This document shows positions 41,898 to 48,815 of a stretch of DNA of 48,936 nt, in pieces. The stretch is from Candidatus Limadaptatus stercoripullorum (GTDB lineage Bacteria; Bacillota; Clostridia; Christensenellales; CAG-917), in assembly GCA_018713795.1 (NCBI GenBank), contig DVOE01000088.1, positions 1 through 48,936 of the forward strand, written 5' to 3'. Under the pieces are notes generated by a model. It was not told where the DNA came from and did not search any database. It worked only from the letters and a program-made list of their open reading frames with translations. Within the stretch, counting starts at the first letter, position 1. The number at the start of each line of letters is the position of its first letter. The position numbers were made by a program, and so were the translations under genes.

Positions 41898-42775
41898 ATC
41901 TTTTCACCCTCCTCCGCGGGCAGGTCTATGCCGTGCGCCGCGAAATAGCGGATATAATCCTCGTGGCAGTAATCGCACACATCCTTTTGAGTCAGCCCGT
42001 CGATATCCGACGAGAAAGTGTAGGGACCGTTGACCTTGTAGCGGTTCATCGCGCCTATCCTGATGGCGTCCGTGGGACAGTGGAAGGAGCAGGCGGCGCA
42101 GCCCATGCAATGCCTTCCGAACTTCACCTTCCCGTTCTCGTCCATGGTTATGTTCTGCTCGGGACAGAGTTTTACGCACCTGCCGCAGGAAGTGCACTTT
42201 TTCCTGTCCACCCCGAAGAACAGCCCGAGGATACGCATCCCGCCGTGCTCGAAGGCGAGCGACGCGCGGATGAGTTTTGCGCGGGCGGACACCTCCGGGA
42301 TCTTCTCCTCTCCGCGAGCCGCGAGCGCGGCGTCGGCGGGCACGGTGTTGAGCGCGGCGCGCCACATCAGAGCCACCATCTTGTCCGAATGGCGGAAGAG
42401 CATGTTGTAAGGCATCACATAATGGAACTCGCCTTTGAAGACATAGCCCTTCGCCTTCATCTTGCGGCGGAGCACCTCGGAAGAGGCGTCGTTGGCGCTG
42501 AGCGGTTCGCCGCTGGTCTTGATTATGTAGTAGGCGGAGCTCCCTTCGGGGAAGCCCGCCGCGAGGTCGAGCATTATACGCGGAGCGGCAAAACCGTGGA
42601 CGGGATAGGCGAGGAAGACGAGGTCGTACTCCGCGAGAGCGGGATAGACCGCGCCGCGCCTCACCGGTATGTATTCCGTCTCGTAGCCGAGCGCCCGAAG
42701 CTCATCCGCGAACAGATCGCAGATACGCTTCGTGTTGCCCGTCGCCGAAAACGAGTAGAATGCCGCCTTTTTCAT
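41894..42775 (-). CDS. EFR1-type ferredoxin (flavodoxin-like domain plus 2x[4Fe-4S] motifs)
   Basis: N-terminal FSATGNTKRI flavodoxin-like start. CTSCGRCVKLCP and CMGCAACSFHCP cluster motifs. ATGA overlaps on both sides. Confidence 0.75.
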   Translation of the reverse strand: MKKAAFYSFSATGNTKRICDLFADELRALGYETEYIPVRRGAVYPALAEYDLVFLAYPVHGFAAPRIMLDLAAGFPEGSSAYYIIKTSGEPLSANDASSEVLRRKMKAKGYVFKGEFHYVMPYNMLFRHSDKMVALMWRAALNTVPADAALAARGEEKIPEVSARAKLIRASLAFEHGGMRILGLFFGVDRKKCTSCGRCVKLCPEQNITMDENGKVKFGRHCMGCAACSFHCPTDAIRIGAMNRYKVNGPYTFSSDIDGLTQKDVCDYCHEDYIRYFAAHGIDLPAEEGEKI

Positions 42776-44334
42776 TTGAATCGTCTGTACAGAGCCTTTC
42801 TTCCGTTGGTGAAGTACTCCGTGTTCTCCTCCCTTGCATGACTATCATACCACACTTGAGCGAAAAACGGCATAAATTTCGAGAGGCGGTCGAAATCCCA
42901 AGGCTCGGGCTGGCAGCAATCGGGGCACCAATGCCCGGCTTTGAGCACGGTGTACGGGCGCGCGACGAACTCGTGTCCGTCGTGGCAGCGCCAGGTGAGC
43001 GGGGTGTAGAGGTCGCCCTTGGTCATGCTCTCGGAGAGGCACTCCCCGCCCCTGAACGCGGCGGCGTCGCGCATATCCGCGAGGTCGAGTTCGCTGTCGG
43101 GTTTGCTCTCGTCGTAGCCGTGCGAGAGGAGATAGCCCATCTTTTTGACATTCTTGATGTCGCGCATGGCGTCGTAGTCCACATTGCCGTCCGCTATCTC
43201 GCCCTTGGCGAGCACGGGGAAGCCCTCCCAGCTGTCGGGCAGGCACTCGAGGTTATCGCGACTGCCGAAGAAGGCGCGCACCCTGCCCTCGTCGCCCGCC
43301 TTCACCCATTCGAGCGGGGAATTGTCGGTGCCGAGCAGCCTCTCGAAAGCGAACTTGGAGATCAGCCCCGAAGGCACTATGCCCGCCGCCTTGTAGATGG
43401 GGAAGCGCTTCAGGATCTCGTTGCAGAAACCCTTGAAACTATCGTGCTGATAGTCGAACAGATCGTTGAGCGCGGGACCGTCCGCGAACCACAGTCCGTG
43501 GAAGTTGCGGATGCTGTTCCAGCCCGGCTTCATGACCTTCTCCATTTCGATGCCGAAAGTGTTGAGAAGTATCTCGTAAGTGTCGTAGCCGGTCACGCGG
43601 TTCTCCGCGCCGCCGCCGATGTTGAAGCAGCGCCGCCAAAACGCGTCCGCTTTCCCCTCGAGGTCGCGTTCCACTATCCTCTTTACGAGCAGTCCGCTGT
43701 CGCGCGAGGACACCCATTCGAGGGGCACATTCACGCAGGTATGGAACATGAGCCCGTCGCTCATGTTGGCTTTCATCATGTTGTAGTGCAGCATCGCCGT
43801 CTGCCTGATGACCGCCCATTCCAGCCCGCTCTCGATGACATAGCGCTCCGCCTTGACCTTGCTCGCCGCGTAAACATCGTAGACGCTCGGGAGCAGCGGA
43901 TCGCCCACCCGCCCCCAGGGGTGCAGATAGTTCCTGTGTCCGTACACCGCCACCGTGGAAGTGTAGACGAACTTCGGGCGCTTCTCCTGCTCCATGCAGC
44001 TGTCCACCATGTTCATGGTGCCAACGCGGTTGGCAAGATCGGTCGCCTTGGGTTTGTGGTCGGAAAGAGGCGGGATTATCGCGCCGATATGGAACACATA
44101 GTCCATGCCCTCCACCAGCGCGCGGCAGTCCGCCTTGACGGCAAGGTCGCCTTCCACCACCTGCACGCGGTCGCCGTAATTCTTCTTCGCCGCCGCGCCG
44201 AACGCGCGGTCCTTCGCGCTCGTGCCGAGCACGAGTATGCGCACAAATTCGACATCTTCAAGCTCCAGCAGCTGCCGCAATGCTTCGCTGCCCATGTTGC
44301 CGCTTGCTCCCGTGAGCGCCACTTTGACTTTCAT
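42772..44334 (-). CDS. NAD(P)-binding SDR/epimerase-fold protein with C-terminal zinc-ribbon-like module
   Basis: MKVKVALTGASGNMGSE (GxxGxxG Rossmann). The C-terminal LTWRCHDGHEFVARPYTVLKAGHWCPDCC resembles a treble-clef/zinc-ribbon motif. AAGGAGGAG lies upstream. Confidence 0.75.
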   Translation of the reverse strand: MKVKVALTGASGNMGSEALRQLLELEDVEFVRILVLGTSAKDRAFGAAAKKNYGDRVQVVEGDLAVKADCRALVEGMDYVFHIGAIIPPLSDHKPKATDLANRVGTMNMVDSCMEQEKRPKFVYTSTVAVYGHRNYLHPWGRVGDPLLPSVYDVYAASKVKAERYVIESGLEWAVIRQTAMLHYNMMKANMSDGLMFHTCVNVPLEWVSSRDSGLLVKRIVERDLEGKADAFWRRCFNIGGGAENRVTGYDTYEILLNTFGIEMEKVMKPGWNSIRNFHGLWFADGPALNDLFDYQHDSFKGFCNEILKRFPIYKAAGIVPSGLISKFAFERLLGTDNSPLEWVKAGDEGRVRAFFGSRDNLECLPDSWEGFPVLAKGEIADGNVDYDAMRDIKNVKKMGYLLSHGYDESKPDSELDLADMRDAAAFRGGECLSESMTKGDLYTPLTWRCHDGHEFVARPYTVLKAGHWCPDCCQPEPWDFDRLSKFMPFFAQVWYDSHAREENTEYFTNGRKALYRRFK

Positions 44335-44445
44335 ACGAGTCTCCTCCTTATCTCCACTCTACTCCGCCGCTCTTACCGCCGCTTGACAAAATCCTTACAA
44401 AACTCTTACTTTACTCCCCTGCGCTTCCGCGCCGCACATTCGTCA

Positions 44446-46464
44446 TTATGCGCCTCTGTCCTCCGCCGTCAGCGGCACCTCTCCGTCCTTGCATTTCACC
44501 ACCTCGCAGGGACAATCAGCCGCCCACCCCGGACACTTCGCGGTCAGTTTTTTCCATTGTCTTACGGTTCCTGAATAAGTAACATGCCGAAGTGACCGGC
44601 AAAAACGAAACGCATTCTCCCCTATGCTCGTCACGCTGTTCGGGATGGTGACAGAGGTGAGAGAGTTGCAACCCCGGAAGGCCCAGTCCCCTATGCTCGT
44701 CACGCTGTTCGGGATGGTGATCGAGGTGAGTGAGGTGCAATAACCGAAGGCATAGTCCCCTATGCTCGTCACGCTGTTCGGGATGGTGACAGATATGAGA
44801 GAGGAGCAATCCCGGAAGGCACCGCTCCCTATGCTCGTCACGCTGTCCGGGATAGTGACAGAGGTGAGTGAGGTGCAATAACCGAAGGCAGAGTCCTCTA
44901 TGCTCGTCACGCTGTCAGGGATGGAGATCGATGTGAGAGCTGTACACCCACAGAAGGCAGAATTCTCTATATTCGTCACGGTATTCGGGATCGTGACAGA
45001 GATGAGAGAGATGCAATCTATGAAGGCATACTGCCCTATGCGCGTCACACTCTCAGGAATGACAAGTTCGGTGGCAAGTTCGCCGTTAAGATACAAATCC
45101 GCAGAGAACACCGGATTGGCATCTGCGTCGTCAAAACTTATCGCCGCCCACTTCCCGATATCCGTGATGTACACGGCTTCAAGAGAGACGCAGTCCATGA
45201 AGGCACAGTCTCTTATGCTCGTCACGCCGTTTCCGATGGTGACAGAGGTGAGTGAGGTGCAATTACAGAAGGCATAGTTCCCTATGCTCGTCACGCTATC
45301 GGGGATAGTGACCGCGGTGATTCCTATGCGCCATGAAAAAGCATCCCGTTTGATGGTCTTCAAGCCATCTAAAAGCGCGATATCGCCTTCCAAATCGCGT
45401 GGTACGAAAAATATCCCTAGAGAATCTTCGTCGTATTGATAGCTGTAGCATACCCTGTCTTCGACGATTATATATTTGTTGTCATCTGCGATCGTCACAT
45501 CCTCGAGTTTCGCGCAGTTTTCGAACGCATTCTCGGCAACATACCAGACATTCCTCCCGAGATGCACTTTTGTCAAACTCGCGCAGCCGAAAAACGCATG
45601 TTCGCCTATCTGCTCGAGCGTTTCGGGGAGCTCTATCTTCTCAAGAGCACGGCAGTTGGCGAAAGCACACGCGCCTATTTGAATCATATTATATTCTTTA
45701 CCATCTATCGTCACATTTTCGGGGATCTTCACGCTCTTCACCCCGAGATATTTGACGCCGACAACGCTTGCCGACTTAAACATGCTCTCGTAGATAAGCA
45801 CTTCCTCGGGTTTGATTGCGTCGAGCTGCTCTTTTTTGCGCGCGGCGCTGTGGGCGAGATCGATGTAGGTGATGTTCGCGTTGCCTATGCGGGTGAGCAA
45901 GTCTTTGAAAGCCTTGACGCGTTTGCGGTCTTCCTTGGTAGTCTCCTCTGCTTCCTTTGCTGCCTTGTCCTTGCACGCTTCCTCGTACAGATATTTCGCC
46001 GCGGTTGTTTTGAGATCTTCTCCGTGGTTGATGAAGATGATGTTTTTGCCGAGTTCATCGGCGACGAGCAGTTCGGCCTGCACCGGCTTGCTCGCCATGG
46101 AGTTCACCGTGCCGTAAACGATGACGCCCTTGCACTCCTGCCTGTTCATCATTCGCTTTGCGAGTTCGCGCCAATCCTTGGATGGTTCCATGGCGCGGTC
46201 GTACCAAATGTCCACGCCGACGGACTCAAGCCTCAAGATGTCCGTATACACGATCTTGAAGTCCTCCCTGCTGTGCGCGACGAAATAGTAGCCGTCGCTT
46301 TCTATTGCCTCGGGCATGATCCAGGGCGGGAGATATTTCAGCGCTTCATACGACCAATTCTCGATGATGGTGATCCTGTCGTCGAGACCTATCCCGCTCG
46401 GCGCCGCGTTCCATACCGCCGAGAGCTTGTTCCGATCGTCTTTTGTGTTGTTGTTATCAGTCAT
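44446..46464 (-). CDS. cytoplasmic TIR-domain protein fused to BspA-type (LRR_5) leucine-rich repeats
   Basis: Residues ~58-150, YYFVAHSREDFKIVYTDILRLESVGVDIWYDRAMEPSKDWRELAKRMMNRQECKGVIVYGTVNSMASKPVQAELLVADELGKNIIFI, follow the TIR_2 strand/helix pattern, including the S-x-x-x-x-E-L glutamate. No signal peptide or TM. There are about 13 repeats of VTIP(D/N)SVTSIGxxAFxxCxSLTS, then a Cys-rich tail CPGWAADCPCEVVKC. Confidence 0.75.
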   Translation of the reverse strand: MTDNNNTKDDRNKLSAVWNAAPSGIGLDDRITIIENWSYEALKYLPPWIMPEAIESDGYYFVAHSREDFKIVYTDILRLESVGVDIWYDRAMEPSKDWRELAKRMMNRQECKGVIVYGTVNSMASKPVQAELLVADELGKNIIFINHGEDLKTTAAKYLYEEACKDKAAKEAEETTKEDRKRVKAFKDLLTRIGNANITYIDLAHSAARKKEQLDAIKPEEVLIYESMFKSASVVGVKYLGVKSVKIPENVTIDGKEYNMIQIGACAFANCRALEKIELPETLEQIGEHAFFGCASLTKVHLGRNVWYVAENAFENCAKLEDVTIADDNKYIIVEDRVCYSYQYDEDSLGIFFVPRDLEGDIALLDGLKTIKRDAFSWRIGITAVTIPDSVTSIGNYAFCNCTSLTSVTIGNGVTSIRDCAFMDCVSLEAVYITDIGKWAAISFDDADANPVFSADLYLNGELATELVIPESVTRIGQYAFIDCISLISVTIPNTVTNIENSAFCGCTALTSISIPDSVTSIEDSAFGYCTSLTSVTIPDSVTSIGSGAFRDCSSLISVTIPNSVTSIGDYAFGYCTSLTSITIPNSVTSIGDWAFRGCNSLTSVTIPNSVTSIGENAFRFCRSLRHVTYSGTVRQWKKLTAKCPGWAADCPCEVVKCKDGEVPLTAEDRGA
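44575..45330. repeat. 69-bp tandem DNA repeats inside the TIR-LRR gene
   Basis: Unit starts at 44621, 44690, 44759, 44828, 44897, 44966 and 45035 (exact 69-bp period), then 45212 and 45281. The 31-nt block cctatgctcgtcacgctgttcgggatggtga is identical in the first three units. Confidence 0.9.
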
Positions 46465-47428
46465 TGGTATCCTCTCCCTTTTCGGCGGCGGAAAGCCGTC
46501 CGCTCGTGGCGCAAGCGGCGAAGTCGAGGGCGGCGGCGAGGCAGTCTCTGCCGCTCTTTGCGAGGCGGCAGGCGAGAGCGCCGGCGTGCACGCCGTTGAT
46601 GCCCTTTGTGAGGAAGGTGCGGCAGGGAACGCCCGCTGCGGTCAGCGCCGCCGCGAAGCTCTCGGACTCCGAGCGAAGCCTGTCCGCCGAGGAGCGCACC
46701 ACCATGAACGGCGGCATTGCGGCGTCCGCGTAGCGTTCGGCGGACACAAACCGCTCAAACTCCTCGTCGCCTTTTGCCTCGTCTATCTCCTTTTGCGACA
46801 TGCCGAGCAGCGCGCGGGTGAACAGCGCCATCTCGGGGAAACGCGTCCCGACGGCGCGCACGGGATCGAAAAGCCCGCTGATCGTGATGCAGGCGGCGGG
46901 ACGGAAAGTCTCCTGTCTTGAAAACTCTATGCCGAACTTCTCGTACAATTCGGGATGGGTCGAGACGGCGGCGAGCATGGCGGTGAAGTAGCCGCCCGCG
47001 CTGTCTCCCGCGACCACGACGCGCGAGGTGTCCGCGCCCGCCTTTTCCGCTTCCGTGAGCGCTCTGTCCAGCCCCGCAAACAGCTCGCGAAGGTGTTCGG
47101 GGTGGGCGGCGTCGAGGGCGTAGTCATAGCCTATATTCGCACAAACATAGCCTTTATCTGCCCATTCGTAGCAATAATATAGCCTGTTATGTCGCCTGCC
47201 CGACACGAACCCGCCGCCGTGGATGTAGACGAAGACGGGGCTTCCCTGCCCTCCGCCTTCGGGGATGACTAGATCAAAAAACGCGTGTTTCCCTTCCCCG
47301 TAGCGGATGTCGCGAAGCACCGTCAGCCCCTTGTGCGGGCGGCGGAACACGAGAAAAAGAAAGAGCTCCGAAAAGTTGTAGCGGCGCTCGGCGCACTTGA
47401 TGGCGGCGCGTTCGCGTTTGGTGAGCAT
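46457..47428 (-). CDS. alpha/beta-hydrolase (HSL/abhydrolase_3-like esterase)
   Basis: ORF 46457..47494 trimmed to MLTKRERAAIK, with AAGGAGGGGG upstream. Oxyanion motif YIHGGGF and nucleophile elbow GDSAGG. C-terminal Asp/His candidates (SSADRL, NGVHAG). It overlaps the TIR-LRR start by 8 nt. Confidence 0.8.
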   Translation of the reverse strand: MLTKRERAAIKCAERRYNFSELFLFLVFRRPHKGLTVLRDIRYGEGKHAFFDLVIPEGGGQGSPVFVYIHGGGFVSGRRHNRLYYCYEWADKGYVCANIGYDYALDAAHPEHLRELFAGLDRALTEAEKAGADTSRVVVAGDSAGGYFTAMLAAVSTHPELYEKFGIEFSRQETFRPAACITISGLFDPVRAVGTRFPEMALFTRALLGMSQKEIDEAKGDEEFERFVSAERYADAAMPPFMVVRSSADRLRSESESFAAALTAAGVPCRTFLTKGINGVHAGALACRLAKSGRDCLAAALDFAACATSGRLSAAEKGEDTND

Positions 47429-47445
47429 GTCCCCCTCCTTCTCTT

Positions 47446-48669
47446 TTATCTGCCGGCGCGGACTATCCCGAGCCCTGCTCTTGCCGCGAACCACGCCGCG
47501 TCGTCCGCGAGCTGGTAGTCGTAGCGGATGACATCCGTCGCTTCCTCGCTCTTGGAAAAGGCGGCGGCGACTATGCGGCGGAATTCGACGAGCCCCTCGA
47601 ATGTGGTGAGATTGCCGTGCCGTCCGCCCGCCATATCCTTGCCTTTGGTCTCGCTCGCTATCGCGGCGCGCGTGGAAGGCAGGAACCCGCAGGTGAACAT
47701 ATACGCATTCCAGCGGTCATGCTCCTGACGCGCCAGCCGCCCGCGCAGTCCGTCTTTTCCGAGGTCGGCATTACGGTAGACGAGTTTGCGTTTGCCGTTC
47801 AGGGTCCCCTCGCCGTATCTCGGCGGATCGCCCGCGAAATACGCCTCTTCCCACTCCCGCGAGGCGTCCCCCGCGCCCCCCGCAGGGGCGAGATCGAAGC
47901 CCGCAAGCAAAAGTTTTGTCCTGAGCCCGAGCGCCGCCATTACATTGGATCCCGCGATGACGGGACTCATCGCGGCGATCTCCTTTTCCGCGCTCGCGGT
48001 GAGTTCCTCGTCCGTGCACCCCGGCATCCACTCGGCGGCATAGGTCTTGTGCCTGTCGTAGGCGAGACGGCACAGATATTCCTCCGCCCGTCCGCCGTCG
48101 CTGCCGAAACATACCACGCCGGGAGCGGCTTTTTCCGCCAACGCGAACACCTTGACGCTGCCGCCCGTGCGCGCCTGCAGTTCCCCTGCCGCGGCGGCGT
48201 TCAGCGCCCTGTCCTCGTCTGCGTACACCGCGACCGAGACCGCTCCTTCCGTCGCCGCGCGCTCTGCGGCGTCCTCCGCCTCTTTGGCGGAAGCAAACTC
48301 GATTTTCCACGGCACGGGCGGCAGCGGCAGATAGTCCTCCCGCCGGAGCCCCTCGTAAGCGAGAAACGCATCGTAGACGCCCGCTCCCCGCTCGTAGCTC
48401 TCTTTCTCCTCGTCTCCGCCGCAGACGGTGTAGCGCACGGCGACGAGCCCGCCTCCCCGCGCCGGCAGCACACTGTCCGCCATCAGCACGCGGAGAACAT
48501 CTCTCGCGATCTTCCCGCAGCCTATGACGGAGACATGCGGAGCCGCGCCAAAAAATTCGGCGCGGGCGGCGTCGACCAGGTCGCCCGCGTGCGCCGCGAG
48601 CGGATAGCCCGCCGCGAGCTCGAGCGCTTCGGGGCTTATGTCGTGTTTGAAACCGATGTCGTTTGCCAT
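47446..48669 (-). CDS. hypothetical protein: N-terminal Rossmann-like motif, C-terminal RyR-like (EHxRW) module
   Basis: VSVIGCGKIARDVL (GxGxxA). The C-terminal LARQEHDRWNAYMFTCGF...GGRHGNLTTFEGL resembles bacterial RyR-domain consensus (H-x-x-W ... G-W/F ... H-P-x-L). GAGAGGAG lies upstream. This is a pattern-only call. Confidence 0.45.
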   Translation of the reverse strand: MANDIGFKHDISPEALELAAGYPLAAHAGDLVDAARAEFFGAAPHVSVIGCGKIARDVLRVLMADSVLPARGGGLVAVRYTVCGGDEEKESYERGAGVYDAFLAYEGLRREDYLPLPPVPWKIEFASAKEAEDAAERAATEGAVSVAVYADEDRALNAAAAGELQARTGGSVKVFALAEKAAPGVVCFGSDGGRAEEYLCRLAYDRHKTYAAEWMPGCTDEELTASAEKEIAAMSPVIAGSNVMAALGLRTKLLLAGFDLAPAGGAGDASREWEEAYFAGDPPRYGEGTLNGKRKLVYRNADLGKDGLRGRLARQEHDRWNAYMFTCGFLPSTRAAIASETKGKDMAGGRHGNLTTFEGLVEFRRIVAAAFSKSEEATDVIRYDYQLADDAAWFAARAGLGIVRAGR

Positions 48670-48704
48670 AACTCTCCTCTCGGGGCGAAAACGCTCACAA
48701 AAAA

Positions 48705-48733
48705 ATTCTATGCCACCGTTCCCCCGCTGTCAA
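48705..48733 (-). promoter_or_regulatory. near-consensus sigma-70 promoter for the Rossmann/RyR - esterase - TIR-LRR unit
   Basis: Minus strand reads TTGACA (48733-48728)-17 nt-TAGAAT (48710-48705). It is ~35 nt upstream of the start codon and directly downstream of the preceding terminator. Confidence 0.6.
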
Positions 48734-48776
48734 TACCGCGCGTGGACGCGCAGGCGGGCGCGGCGTGCGGAAAAAC

Positions 48777-48806
48777 AAAAAAGGCTCCCGCGCGGGGAGC
48801 CTTTTT
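48777..48806 (-). terminator. intrinsic terminator of the upstream (off-window) gene
   Basis: GGCTCCC-GCGCG-GGGAGCC, flanked by A-tract and T-tract. On the minus-strand RNA it is followed by UUUUUUGUUUUU. Confidence 0.8.
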
Positions 48807-48815
48807 CATGCGATG

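What the first reader, a model, noticed from the sequence alone, without database searches (positions are those of the whole stretch)
44446..48733. Three-gene unit encoding a cytoplasmic TIR-LRR protein, an esterase and a Rossmann/RyR-like protein: candidate undescribed defence or signalling system
Seen in the sequence:
- A near-consensus promoter (TTGACA-17-TAGAAT) sits immediately after an upstream terminator.
- It is followed by three tightly packed genes, separated by a 17-nt gap and then an 8-nt overlap.
- Gene 1 (407 aa) has a GCGKIA Rossmann-like motif and a C-terminal EHDRWNAY...GF...HGNL module resembling bacterial RyR domains.
- Gene 2 is an HGGG/GDSAGG alpha/beta-hydrolase.
- Gene 3 (672 aa) has no signal peptide or TM. 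Its N-terminal ~95-aa segment follows the TIR_2 pattern and retains the Glu (VQAELL) at the position that is catalytic in NAD-cleaving TIRs. A charged linker follows, then about 13 BspA-type LRR_5 repeats and a Cys-rich tail.

Established knowledge:
- Bacterial TIR domains act as NADases or signal generators in anti-phage systems such as Thoeris and some CBASS/Pycsar-type effectors.
- TIR plus LRR is the sensor logic of TLRs and plant TIR-NLRs.
- BspA-type LRRs are normally on secreted or surface proteins.

Inference:
- A cytoplasmic TIR-LRR_5 fusion without an NTPase, co-transcribed with a serine hydrolase and a nucleotide-binding/RyR-like protein, is not a system I recognise.
- The LRR could be the sensor, the TIR the NAD-consuming or signal-producing module, and the hydrolase and Rossmann protein a signal-processing or effector pair.
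Basis: partly seen in the sequence, partly recalled or inferred. Interest (0 to 1): 0.85.

Follow-up and report, generated by a model that had tools for sequence, protein, structure and literature searches.

The report
TIR-LRR sensor beside RyR-like protein
A gut Clostridia-type bacterium carries an operon in which a cytoplasmic TIR-plus-leucine-rich-repeat protein from a large uncharacterised family sits behind a protein with a ryanodine-receptor-like nucleotide pocket, a pairing that recurs in other genomes and may be an undescribed variant of Thoeris-type anti-phage signalling, although the exact three-gene unit is not conserved.

Summary
The described sequence features are present. A terminator and a TTGACA-17-TAGAAT promoter precede three packed minus-strand genes.

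- **g1** (407 aa) has a Rossmann-like N-terminal half and a divergent RyR(R12)-like C-terminal module.
- **g2** is a family-IV esterase.
- **g3** (672 aa) is a true TIR domain that keeps the catalytic-position Glu131. It also has 13 LRR_5 units and no signal peptide or TM segment.

The three-gene "system" is not conserved. A sister taxon has g1-g2 followed directly by the same downstream gene, with no g3. g3 has lower GC, evolves much faster than g1 and g2, and is frameshifted or truncated in some strains. None of 74 TIR(-LRR_5) loci carries the esterase.

TIR-LRR_5 is not unique either. It is a large family of mostly stand-alone genes in gut and rumen Clostridia and Bacilli.

One link does hold. 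In 4 of 10 independent contexts, a g1-family gene has a TIR gene within two genes. RyR or RyR-like proteins also occur in 6 of the 74 TIR loci. Two 2026 preprints show that phage RyR domains bind or cleave TIR-made cADPR isomers.

Best reading, at moderate confidence: a Thoeris-like TIR/RyR-like pairing. No function was tested here.

The parts
48771..48809 (-). Intrinsic terminator of the upstream M28-peptidase-like gene. It marks the 5' boundary of the unit.
   Evidence: The RNA fold shows a 15-bp hairpin flanked by A and U tracts, dG -23.7 kcal/mol. The sequence was read.
48705..48733 (-). Sigma-70-like promoter, TTGACA-17-TAGAAT
   Evidence: It matches 11 of 12 positions. The GAGAGGAGAG ribosome-binding site lies at about 48672-48681 and the ATG at 48669. 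The consensus match is not statistically unusual on its own.
47446..48669 (-). g1, 407 aa. It is the short, TM-less member of a small family with a Rossmann/TrkA_N-like half and an RyR(R12)-like half.
   Evidence: There is no Pfam hit. The AF2 model has pLDDT 93. The Foldseek PDB top hit is RyR1 (E 0.024, prob 0.92), followed by LDH, MDH and RCK folds. Homologues are listed.
47449..47772 (-). RyR(R12)-like module of g1, residues about 300-407. Family-invariant residues include E316, H317, R319, W320, N321, H351, N353, T355, T356, D379 and D384.
   Evidence: The invariant columns come from the 21-sequence alignment. The only hhalign alignment places g1 residues 310-361 on the Pfam-annotated RyR region 487-534 of the L097 748-aa protein. 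An HMM of this module hits the TM-RyR-like neighbours of TIR genes in L062 and L081.
48100..48552 (-). Rossmann-like domain of g1, residues about 40-190. GCGKIA sits at the beta1-alphaA turn.
   Evidence: The secondary structure comes from DSSP on the AF2 model. Foldseek gives weak matches to LDH, MDH and MthK RCK. Equivalent regions of relatives give weak TrkA_N hits.
46457..47428 (-). g2, 323 aa from its ATG. It is a family-IV (HSL-type) alpha/beta-hydrolase esterase.
   Evidence: Pfam gives BD-FAE at 3.4e-22 and Abhydrolase_3 at 1.7e-21. NCBIfam gives HSL-family hits, all far below the equivalog cut-offs. The HGGG and GDSAGG motifs are visible.
44446..46464 (-). g3, 672 aa. It is a cytoplasmic TIR-LRR_5 protein.
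46015..46302 (-). TIR domain core of g3, residues about 55-150, with Glu131 at the catalytic position
   Evidence: The AF2 model has pLDDT 84.7. The Foldseek top hits are nearly all TIR domains, most at prob 1.00. All 68 sampled homologues hit Pfam TIR_2. The family profile aligns its Glu with the conserved Glu of ThsB and TLR1. dN/dS is 0.24.
44545..45747 (-). LRR_5 (BspA-type) solenoid of g3, with 13 recognisable units
   Evidence: Pfam LRR_5 scores E 7e-99.
44618..45048 (-). 69-bp (23-aa) tandem DNA repeat array inside the LRR region. It is the probable source of length variation between strains.
   Evidence: TRF finds 6.2 copies at 77% match. g3 is 553, 658, 669 or 672 aa in close relatives.

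Best explanation
The locus is a mosaic rather than a fixed three-gene system.

**g3.** g3 belongs to a large family of cytoplasmic TIR-LRR_5 proteins from gut and rumen Clostridia and Bacilli. Most members are encoded alone or as tandem paralogues. In this lineage g3 was inserted at the 3' end of an older g1-g2 operon.

**Inferred mechanism of g3.** The variable LRR_5 solenoid binds a trigger, most plausibly a phage protein. Binding brings the N-terminal TIR domains together. The composite TIR active site, using Glu131, then cleaves or cyclises NAD+.

**g1.** g1 is a TM-less member of a small family whose conserved C-terminal module is a divergent RyR(R12) nucleotide pocket (H317-x2-W320 ... 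H351 ... D379). This family, and bona fide RyR-domain proteins, recur beside TIR genes in unrelated genomes.

**Likely pairing.** The g1/g3 pair most likely works like a Thoeris system. The TIR makes an ADP-ribose-derived signal and the RyR-like pocket binds it or hydrolyses it.
- In the long-form relatives, the pocket would control an N-terminal 4-TM module.
- In this short form, g1 would act as a soluble receptor, buffer or trimmer of the signal.

**g2.** The esterase g2 is probably a passenger, or at most a lineage-specific effector.

**Shown here:** the gene layout, the domain identities, the family distributions and the neighbourhood statistics.

**Inferred only:** the trigger, NAD chemistry, signal binding and any defence role.
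For: **Operon layout**
- One promoter, a 17-nt gap, an 8-nt overlap and no internal terminator.

**TIR identity of g3**
- All 68 sampled homologues hit TIR_2, the best at 4.8e-91.
- The Foldseek top hits are nearly all TIR domains, including SPARTA, AbTir, PdTIR, BtpA, SARM1 and ThsB.
- Glu131 is at least 90% conserved in the family and aligns with the conserved Glu of ThsB and TLR1.
- The TIR core is under purifying selection, with dN/dS 0.24.

**g3 family**
- An exhaustive HMMER search found 1198 clusters (50% identity) at E <= 1e-3 and 172 at E <= 1e-10.
- 55 of 68 sampled homologues have LRR_5.
- Of 84 TIR ORFs in 74 genome loci, 74 are N-terminal TIR plus LRR_5, and none has a convincing signal peptide or N-terminal TM helix.

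**RyR-likeness of g1**
- The invariant EHxRWN...H.N.TTF.GL...DVI.YD block.
- The Foldseek PDB top hit is RyR1.
- The single hhalign alignment falls exactly on a Pfam RyR region.

**Recurrent TIR adjacency from the g1 side**
- L097/L098: g1L, then an HD-RyR-SLOG-like protein, then TIR_2+LRR_5.
- L101/L102: g1L, then TIR, SIR2 and TIR-RHS.
- L074: g1L, then a TIR-methyltransferase fusion, two RyR proteins and a TIR-LRR_5.
- Together with the window, that is 4 of 10 independent contexts.

**Recurrent adjacency from the TIR side**
- RyR or RyR-like proteins occur in 6 of the 74 TIR loci: L062, L074, L081, L082, L084 and L085.
- Background is low. Only 1 extra family-type TIR hit was found in about 533 kb of flanking sequence.
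- P0130 is a fusion of TIR domains with two RyR domains.

**Biochemical precedent**
- The phage RyR-domain proteins RyDEP and RyR Tad bind or cleave 2'cADPR and 3'cADPR. They use a His/Trp/His/Asp set of residues (PMC13232231; bioRxiv 10.64898/2026.06.04.730250).
Against: - The g1-g2 pair exists without g3 in the sister taxon L009.
- g3 has lower GC, about 0.50 against 0.61 for the flanks. It is 62-87% identical between strains in which g1 and g2 are 95-97% identical.
- g3 is frameshifted in L003-L006 and truncated next to a recombinase gene in L007. g1 and g2 stay intact there with unchanged dN/dS. The function of g1 therefore does not depend on this g3.
- More than 90% of TIR-LRR_5 genes have no RyR-like neighbour and no other conserved neighbour. 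The TIR-LRR_5 protein can evidently act alone.
- g1 lacks the TM module that looks like the effector part in its long relatives.
- RyR homology of g1 is below significance in every single test. Pfam finds nothing. The Foldseek E-value is 0.024. The hhalign E-value is 0.021 with a reported probability of only 2%. BFVD gives nothing.
- The flanks are not a defence island, and PADLOC finds no system.
Confidence: 0.45

Rival explanations
1. The three genes are functionally unrelated neighbours. g3 is a self-contained single-protein sensor-effector: the LRR_5 part senses a trigger and the TIR part depletes NAD+ in an abortive-infection manner. It happened to insert behind a g1-g2 operon that has its own, possibly metabolic, role.
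For: - Most TIR-LRR_5 genes stand alone or in tandem, with no shared neighbour.
- L009 has g1-g2 without g3.
- g3 is inactivated in some strains while g1 and g2 stay under purifying selection.
- g3 has lower GC than its flanks.
- g2 matches acetyl- or feruloyl-esterase families, and a fucosidase and a peptidase lie just upstream.
Against: - A TIR gene lies within two genes of a g1-family gene in 4 of 10 independent contexts. RyR or RyR-like proteins occur in 6 of 74 TIR loci. Background is about 1 family-type TIR per 0.5 Mb.
- RyR domains are now known to bind cADPR isomers.
- g2 and g3 overlap by 8 nt and share one promoter with g1.
Confidence: 0.38
2. This is an obligate three-gene system in which the LRR senses, the TIR signals, and the esterase and the Rossmann/RyR-like protein together form the effector.
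For: The genes are tightly packed under one promoter. Hydrolases and phospholipases are among the predicted Thoeris effectors (bioRxiv 10.64898/2025.12.03.692087). A GDSL lipase lies in the L101 TIR cluster.
Against: - The trio is seen only in one species-level lineage.
- The esterase is absent from 74 of 74 TIR loci. It is also absent from every other g1-family context except the sister taxon.
- g2 is a single-domain enzyme with no visible signal-binding module.
Confidence: 0.05
3. g3 is an exported protein. It is either a BspA-type surface adhesin or a host-directed TIR effector, of the Tcp/Btp kind, that interferes with animal TLR signalling in the gut.
For: LRR_5 proteins are typically surface proteins, and NCBIfam gives partial hits to LRR adhesin models. 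The family is restricted to gut and rumen bacteria. Foldseek hits include BtpA/TcpB.
Against: - g3 has no signal peptide, TM segment or anchor, and neither do the 84 family ORFs examined.
- The TIR is at the extreme N-terminus, where a signal peptide would have to sit.
- The adhesin hits cover only the repeats and lie far below the cut-offs (141.7 against 1250 bits).
- The family also occurs in wall-less Mollicutes-type lineages.
Confidence: 0.05
4. g3 is a decaying or non-enzymatic gene, either a scaffold TIR or a pseudogene in the making, with no current catalytic role in this strain.
For: This protein departs from the family consensus at three near-invariant positions, with AHSRED in place of SYSHKD. 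Its TIR_2 score is below the gathering threshold. Related strains carry frameshifted or truncated copies.
Against: The 672-codon reading frame is intact in the window. All invariant family residues and Glu131 are kept. The TIR core has dN/dS 0.24. Long-read assemblies carry intact 658-aa copies.
Confidence: 0.07

Closest known systems
Thoeris anti-phage systems (ThsB TIR signal generator plus a signal-activated effector; types I-XI and further predicted types, bioRxiv 10.64898/2025.12.03.692087)
   Same: A TIR protein with the catalytic-position Glu is encoded next to a protein with a candidate nucleotide-binding module. TIR genes are variable and swapped in and out beside a more stable partner. 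Some relatives of the partner carry N-terminal TM helices, as many Thoeris effectors do. Type X pairs a TIR with a predicted ion channel, and its signal is unknown.
   Different: - No ThsA, SLOG, Macro or other known effector model matches. PADLOC gives only weak ThsB hits.
- The TIR carries its own LRR_5 sensor.
- The partner in this window lacks any TM or recognised toxic domain.
- The pair is not conserved in the sister taxon.
- 'RyR' does not occur in that paper's text or in its four held supplements.
- I could not compare g1 with the type X effector ThsK because I had no sequence for it.
Phage RyR(R12)-domain proteins RyDEP and RyR Tad (PMC13232231; bioRxiv 10.64898/2026.06.04.730250)
   Same: g1 has the same order of key residues: H-x2-W, then H, then D. 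In RyDEP these are H75, W78, H100 and D117. In g1 they are H317, W320, H351 and D379, all invariant in the g1 family. Both kinds of protein are connected with TIR signalling.
   Different: g1 is chromosomal and host-encoded, and only 1 relative was found in 2.9 million viral contigs. It is fused to a Rossmann-like domain. It is too divergent for the Pfam RyR model. Ligand binding is untested, and the BFVD fold search gave nothing.
Animal Toll-like receptors and plant TIR-NLRs
   Same: They combine an LRR sensor with a TIR output domain. The TIR fold matches TLR1, TLR10, MyD88 and RPP1.
   Different: g3 has no TM segment, unlike TLRs, and no NB-ARC or NACHT NTPase, unlike TNLs. The domain order is TIR at the N-terminus followed by LRR. 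The repeats are of the BspA LRR_5 type. Common descent of the fusion is unlikely.
BspA-type LRR_5 surface proteins (for example the HupY/LrrG and Gli349 models)
   Same: The repeat type is the same, with LRR_5 at E 7e-99. Repeat number varies in the same way through a 69-bp tandem array.
   Different: g3 has no signal peptide, lipobox or wall anchor. It carries an N-terminal TIR. Scores against the adhesin equivalog models are far below their cut-offs.
Stand-alone bacterial TIR NADases and effectors (AbTir, PdTIR, BtpA; TIR-APAZ of SPARTA)
   Same: These are the best structural matches to the g3 TIR model, and the Glu is retained.
   Different: The partner domains differ. Sequence similarity is weak: the family profile scores E 0.009-0.18 against PDB TIR sequences.

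Membership tests
TIR domain (Pfam TIR_2, PF13676) | Profile match at or above the gathering score | tested here: inconclusive
   g3 alone scores 21.9 bits against a cut-off of 28 (E 2.6e-4). All 68 sampled homologues of its N-terminal domain hit TIR_2 at E <= 1e-3, the best at 4.8e-91.
TIR domain (Pfam TIR_2, PF13676) | Flavodoxin-like TIR fold | tested here: met
   The AF2 model has pLDDT 84.7. The Foldseek PDB top hits are nearly all TIR domains, most at probability 1.00, although E-values are only 2e-3 to 3e-2.
TIR domain (Pfam TIR_2, PF13676) | Glu at the catalytic position of NAD-cleaving TIRs | tested here: met
   E131 is at least 90% conserved in the family and invariant in the 21-sequence domain alignment. 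The family profile aligns it with the conserved Glu of ThsB (9uv0) and TLR1.
TIR domain (Pfam TIR_2, PF13676) | NAD+ hydrolase or cyclase activity | not testable with these tools
   This needs a biochemical assay.
BspA-type LRR_5 surface protein | LRR_5 repeats | tested here: met
   Pfam LRR_5 scores E 7.4e-99. There are 13 units.
BspA-type LRR_5 surface protein | Signal peptide, lipobox, TM segment or wall anchor for export | tested here: not met
   The hydropathy scan finds no hydrophobic N-terminus or TM segment in g3 or in the 84 family ORFs. No dedicated signal-peptide predictor was available.
Thoeris-type TIR signalling system | TIR gene in an operon with an effector carrying a known signal-binding domain (SLOG, Macro and others) | tested here: not met
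   PADLOC and Pfam find no such domain in g1 or g2. Only the RyR-like module is a candidate.
Thoeris-type TIR signalling system | Conserved co-occurrence of the TIR gene and its partner gene across genomes | tested here: inconclusive
   4 of 10 g1-family contexts have a TIR gene within two genes. 6 of 74 TIR loci contain RyR or RyR-like proteins. Against this, the sister taxon lacks g3 and most TIR-LRR_5 genes stand alone.
Thoeris-type TIR signalling system | Protection against phage that depends on the TIR catalytic residue | not testable with these tools
   This needs phage challenge experiments.
RyR / R12 domain (Pfam PF02026) | Profile match | tested here: not met
   No RyR hit at E <= 10 for g1 or for any of the 10 members of alignment A1. 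A profile search of PDB sequences was empty. hhalign against the RyR fusion protein P0130 did not align the RyR regions.
RyR / R12 domain (Pfam PF02026) | Structural similarity to the R12 repeat | tested here: inconclusive
   The Foldseek PDB top hit is pig RyR1 (E 0.024, prob 0.92, rmsd 10.5), and no hit reaches E <= 1e-3. The BFVD search gave nothing.
RyR / R12 domain (Pfam PF02026) | Ligand-contacting residues in order: H-x2-W, then H, then D (RyDEP H75, W78, H100, D117) | tested here: inconclusive
   H317, W320, H351 and D379 are invariant in the 21 family members. hhalign places g1 residues 310-361 on a Pfam-annotated RyR region (E 0.021, 31% identity, reported probability 2%). The geometry of the pocket was not checked.
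Family IV / HSL-type esterases (Abhydrolase_3) | Profile match plus the HGGG oxyanion motif and the GDSAG nucleophile motif | tested here: met
   Abhydrolase_3 scores 77.4 bits against a cut-off of 25. Both motifs are visible in the translation. No NCBIfam equivalog cut-off is reached, so the substrate is unknown.
NLR / STAND-type TIR receptors (plant TNL, bacterial Avs or TIR-NLR) | Central NB-ARC, NACHT or STAND NTPase | tested here: not met
   Pfam and PADLOC find no NTPase domain in g3.

The most novel reading that the evidence does not exclude
Host-encoded RyR(R12)-like proteins are the natural receptors of TIR-made ADP-ribose-derived signals in an undescribed class of Thoeris-like systems from gut and rumen Firmicutes.
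- These proteins include the 4-TM plus Rossmann/TrkA-like plus RyR-like 'long forms', HD-RyR-SLOG-like proteins of about 750 aa, and soluble short forms such as g1.
- In some of these systems the TIR carries its own LRR_5 sensor.
- The phage RyR sponges and glycosidases reported in 2026 would then be mimics or captured copies of the host receptor domain.
- The cADPR-RyR link of animals would have a bacterial immune antecedent.
Probability: 0.3. Interest if true: 0.85.

Novelty: new variant of a known kind. Interest (0 to 1): 0.6.

Why it matters
- If the RyR-like/TIR link is functional, it adds a new receptor type to TIR-based bacterial immunity. It would also suggest where the phage anti-Thoeris RyR proteins came from.
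- It would give a bacterial context to the long-debated connection between cADPR and ryanodine receptors.
- The TIR-LRR_5 family is large and confined to gut and rumen bacteria. It was left out of the systematic Thoeris survey, which discarded stand-alone TIR proteins.
- This family combines LRR and TIR in one protein with no NTPase and no membrane anchor. That is the simplest possible "sensor plus TIR" design and is easy to test.
- If the genes are unrelated neighbours, the finding reduces to a new member of an uncharacterised but already catalogued protein family.

Tried and rejected
- **PDB sequence searches.** Searches with g1, with the g3 N-terminus and with the g1 family profile gave nothing useful.
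- **Exact look-up of g3.** It is not on record.
- **Pfam on ten g1-family members.** No RyR hit.
- **hhalign of the g1 family against the TIR-RyR fusion P0130.** It aligned unrelated regions.
- **Foldseek of the g1 model against viral structures.** Nothing.
- **Metagenome scan with g2**, meant to test presence or absence of g3 across strains. It found only two distant esterases. The question was answered instead by look-up of an epimerase variant. That look-up showed that short-read contigs break inside the g3 repeats, whereas long-read contigs carry an intact g3. The small number of g3 sequences in the database is therefore an assembly artefact, not evidence of absence.
- **Neighbour clustering and a Pfam census** of 123 immediate neighbours of TIR genes. 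No dominant partner family emerged.
- **Literature searches** for bacterial TIR-LRR_5 proteins found nothing.
- **Rejected: a prophage or defence-island context.** The flanks encode DnaE, PFK, a tRNA methyltransferase, a fucosidase, a peptidase, a two-component system and similar genes.
- **Rejected: g1 as an N-terminally truncated pseudogene.** It is 407 aa in a 90%-identity cluster of 165 member sequences, has dN/dS of about 0.2, and is preceded directly by the promoter and terminator.

Full report
**1. What is in the sequence**

All three genes lie on the minus strand.
- g1 is 47446-48669 (407 aa).
- g2 is 46457-47428 (323 aa from its ATG). The mechanical ORF starts at an upstream GTG at 47494.
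- g3 is 44446-46464 (672 aa).

Upstream features:
- A strong hairpin flanked by A and U tracts ends the preceding gene (about 48771-48809, dG -23.7 kcal/mol).
- TTGACA-17-TAGAAT follows at 48733-48705, matching 11 of 12 positions.
- A GAGAGGAGAG ribosome-binding site precedes the ATG.

The promoter match alone is not statistically remarkable: 2 sites were found against 1.5 +/- 1.3 in shuffles. Its placement is what makes it credible.

No terminator follows g3. The next gene, a 520-aa epimerase-like protein, starts 111 nt downstream and has its own conserved upstream motif.

**2. The three proteins**

*g2* is an ordinary family-IV esterase. Pfam gives Abhydrolase_3 and BD-FAE above threshold. 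No NCBIfam equivalog cut-off is reached, so the substrate is unknown.

*g3* has the following features.
- A very strong LRR_5 match (E 7e-99).
- 13 recognisable 23-aa units.
- A 69-bp tandem DNA array at 44618-45048.
- No hydrophobic N-terminus or TM segment.

The Pfam TIR_2 hit of g3 is sub-threshold (21.9 against 28 bits). I therefore tested the TIR call independently in four ways.
- An exhaustive HMMER search with residues 1-170 found 1198 clusters (50% identity) at E <= 1e-3 and 172 at E <= 1e-10. Most hits are proteins of 450-950 aa with the domain at the N-terminus.
- All 68 sampled hits match TIR_2 (best 4.8e-91), and 55 of them also have LRR_5.
- An AF2 model built with that family (pLDDT 84.7) retrieves almost only TIR domains from the PDB. 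These include SPARTA TIR-APAZ, AbTir, PdTIR, BtpA, SARM1, ThsB, MyD88 and TLR10.
- Glu131 (VQAELL) is conserved in the family. The family profile aligns it with the conserved Glu of ThsB and TLR1.

The window's copy departs from the family consensus at a few near-invariant positions (AHSRED in place of SYSHKD). It keeps every invariant residue.

*g1* has no Pfam, NCBIfam, PADLOC or PDB-sequence match.
- Its family is small: 18 clusters were found even with a profile search.
- Most members are about 720 aa. They carry 3-5 N-terminal hydrophobic helices and an extra Rossmann-like domain. g1 is a short, soluble form.
- Every invariant residue of the family lies in the C-terminal half, mostly in the last 100 residues: E316, H317, R319, W320, N321, G328, P331, H351, N353, T355, T356, F357, G359, L360, D379, V380, I381, Y383, D384.
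- The AF2 model is confident (pLDDT 93).
- Its best PDB match is pig RyR1 (E 0.024, prob 0.92). LDH, MDH and RCK Rossmann folds follow at weaker levels.
- hhalign of the family against a neighbouring 748-aa protein with a bona fide Pfam RyR domain gives one alignment. It places g1 residues 310-361 on that RyR region (31% identity, E 0.021, reported probability 2%).

No single test is significant. Together with the motif they make "divergent RyR(R12)-like" the best description.

**3. Is the trio a unit? No**

- In close relatives (g1 and g2 95-97% identical) the same synteny holds. The order is fucosidase, M28 peptidase, then g1-g2-g3, then the epimerase-like gene, a Fer4 protein and a two-component system.
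- g3 is the odd one out.
  - It is only 62-87% identical between these strains.
  - Its length varies: 553, 658, 669 or 672 aa.
  - It is frameshifted in four independent assemblies, L003-L006.
  - It is truncated next to a serine-recombinase gene in L007.
  - Its GC content is about 0.50, against 0.61 for the flanks.
- In a sister taxon (L009) g1 is 49% identical, g2 57% and the epimerase-like gene 86%. There the order is g1, g2, a 249-nt spacer and then the epimerase-like gene, with no trace of g3.
- g3 is therefore a lineage-specific insertion behind an older g1-g2 pair.
- The TIR core is still under purifying selection (dN/dS 0.24). g1 and g2 have dN/dS of 0.15-0.25 whether or not g3 is intact.

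**4. The TIR-LRR_5 family**

- A genome scan returned 74 loci. They come from gut, rumen and faecal MAGs of Clostridia (Christensenellaceae, Borkfalkia, Stercoripulliclostridium and others) and Bacilli (Anaeroplasma and Acholeplasmatales types).
- Of 84 TIR ORFs in these loci, 74 are N-terminal TIR plus LRR_5. None has a convincing signal peptide. Nine loci carry tandem paralogues.
- None of the 74 loci has a g2 homologue, and one has a close g1 homologue.
- Clustering of all neighbours, and a Pfam census of the 123 immediate neighbours, show no dominant partner.
- I found no paper describing it.
- The systematic Thoeris survey explicitly discarded stand-alone TIR proteins.

**5. The link that does recur**

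Starting from the g1 family, I examined ten independent contexts.

| Context | Arrangement |
|---|---|
| Window lineage | g1 (short), esterase, TIR-LRR_5 |
| L009 | g1 (short), esterase, no TIR |
| L010 | No TIR visible |
| L011/L012 | No TIR visible |
| L100 | No TIR visible |
| L105 | No TIR visible |
| L103/L104 | g1 (short), two ClpP-like genes, an 828-aa TM protein with a weak RyR hit |
| L097/L098 | g1L, a 748-aa HD-like/RyR/SLOG-like protein, a 353-aa TIR_2+LRR_5 protein, three further genes, all tightly packed |
| L101/L102 | g1L, TIR (378 aa), SIR2, TIR-RHS, GDSL lipase. NADAR/DarT-like, reverse-transcriptase and integrase genes lie upstream |
| L074 | g1L overlapping a TIR-methyltransferase fusion, then two RyR proteins and a TIR-LRR_5 |

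A TIR gene lies within two genes in 4 of the 10 contexts.

From the TIR side, RyR or RyR-like proteins occur in 6 of the 74 loci.
- L062: a TM/RyR-like protein directly upstream of two TIR-LRR_5 genes.
- L074.
- L081: a divergently transcribed neighbour.
- L082, L084 and L085.

The background is low. Only one extra family-type TIR hit was found in about 533 kb of flanking sequence more than 3 kb from the seed genes. P0130 fuses TIR domains with two RyR domains. Only one g1 relative exists in 2.9 million viral contigs, so this is a host family.

**6. Why this matters now**

- RyDEP uses H75, W78, H100 and D117.
- RyR Tad uses H129/W132, H154/K147 and K170/D171.
- The g1 family keeps H317-x2-W320, H351 and D379 invariant, in the same order.

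Neither paper discusses host-encoded RyR proteins beside TIR genes. The survey of 29 putative Thoeris types does not mention RyR in its text or its four held supplements. Its type X pairs a TIR with a predicted ion channel and has an unknown signal. I could not compare those sequences with the TM-bearing g1 relatives.

**7. Most likely mechanism**

Shown here: the gene layout, the domain identities and the neighbourhood statistics.

Inferred:
- The LRR_5 solenoid binds a trigger, most plausibly a phage protein.
- The TIR domains assemble, and Glu131-dependent chemistry consumes NAD+.
- The RyR-like pocket of g1 binds or trims the product.
- In the long forms this would control the TM module. 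In this soluble form g1 would be a receptor, buffer or trimmer.
- g2 is probably a passenger.

I put 0.45 on a functional g1-g3 link. I put 0.38 on the rival view that g3 acts alone and the neighbours are unrelated. The rest is split among the obligate-trio, exported-adhesin and decaying-gene readings.

**8. Verdict**

- The locus is best filed as a new variant of TIR-based (Thoeris-like) signalling. Its TIR-LRR_5 component is a new member of a large uncharacterised family.
- No function was tested. RyR homology of g1 rests on converging weak evidence.

Noticed in passing
L097:7227-9473; L074:6779-9040 (-); L084:7513-9792; L085:7983-10256: Proteins of about 750 aa recur next to TIR genes in Clostridia MAGs. 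They have an HD-like N-terminus, a bona fide Pfam RyR domain in the middle and a SLOG-like C-terminus. The HD and SLOG parts were judged by eye from motifs, not tested. They look like a separate TIR-linked signalling component.
   Followed up: partly
L016:2503-2967, L017:1329-1808, L021:8060-8662, L022:5820-6365, L023:1846-2364, L024:8308-8892, L025:9403-9870, L037:4607-5083, L039:7175-7642: A conserved ORF of about 155 aa (MKSEIIF..W..R.G..EG..I.IS..F.D...WP...K) lies directly upstream of the TIR-LRR_5 gene in 9 of 74 loci. It often overlaps the start of the TIR gene. It is absent from the window and its function is unknown.
   Followed up: no
P0130 (1173 aa): This single protein has two or three TIR domains and two C-terminal Pfam RyR domains. 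It is a natural TIR-RyR fusion.
   Followed up: partly
P0030 (873 aa): This long-form g1-family protein has a short LRR_5 segment inserted between the TM region and the Rossmann-like domains.
   Followed up: no
L003:10001-12200; L004-L006; L007:10001-12022: g3 is frameshifted at about residue 155-165, and again further on, in four independent assemblies. In L007 it is truncated at about residue 260-285, directly next to a serine-recombinase gene on the opposite strand.
   Followed up: partly
window 42772-44334 (-): A 520-aa SDR/epimerase-like protein has a C-terminal treble-clef zinc-finger-like segment (weak DUF4379 hit). It is far more conserved (86% identity to L009, dN/dS 0.03) than g1 and g2 (49-57%).
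   Followed up: no
window about 44383-44405 (-) and L009 about 2627-2650: The motif TTGTAAGG(A/T)TTTTGTCAAGCG is conserved upstream of the epimerase-like gene in both taxa. It is probably that gene's own promoter or operator, and it marks the 3' edge of the g3 insertion.
   Followed up: no
L101:1-17542: This is a defence-island-like cluster. It holds an integrase, a NADAR/DarT1-like gene, a reverse transcriptase, a g1 long form, a TIR, SIR2, a TIR-RHS protein (921 aa), a GDSL lipase and an AAA/FtsH-like protein.
   Followed up: partly
L103:3231-8047: A short-form g1 homologue (P0016) is followed by two ClpP-like protease genes and by an 828-aa TM protein ending in an EHNRWN...GW RyR-like module. 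No TIR is present on the 8.1-kb contig.
   Followed up: partly
L011:2469-7910: The g1 homologue P0017 (596 aa, no TM) overlaps an upstream 679-aa protein that gives weak ThiF and TrkA_N hits. An ADP-ribosylglycohydrolase gene lies two genes further upstream.
   Followed up: no
L092-L096: Short-read contigs of this species end within 80-800 nt upstream of the epimerase-like gene, which is inside the g3 repeat region. The g3 gene is therefore systematically under-represented and fragmented in metagenome protein catalogues.
   Followed up: yes
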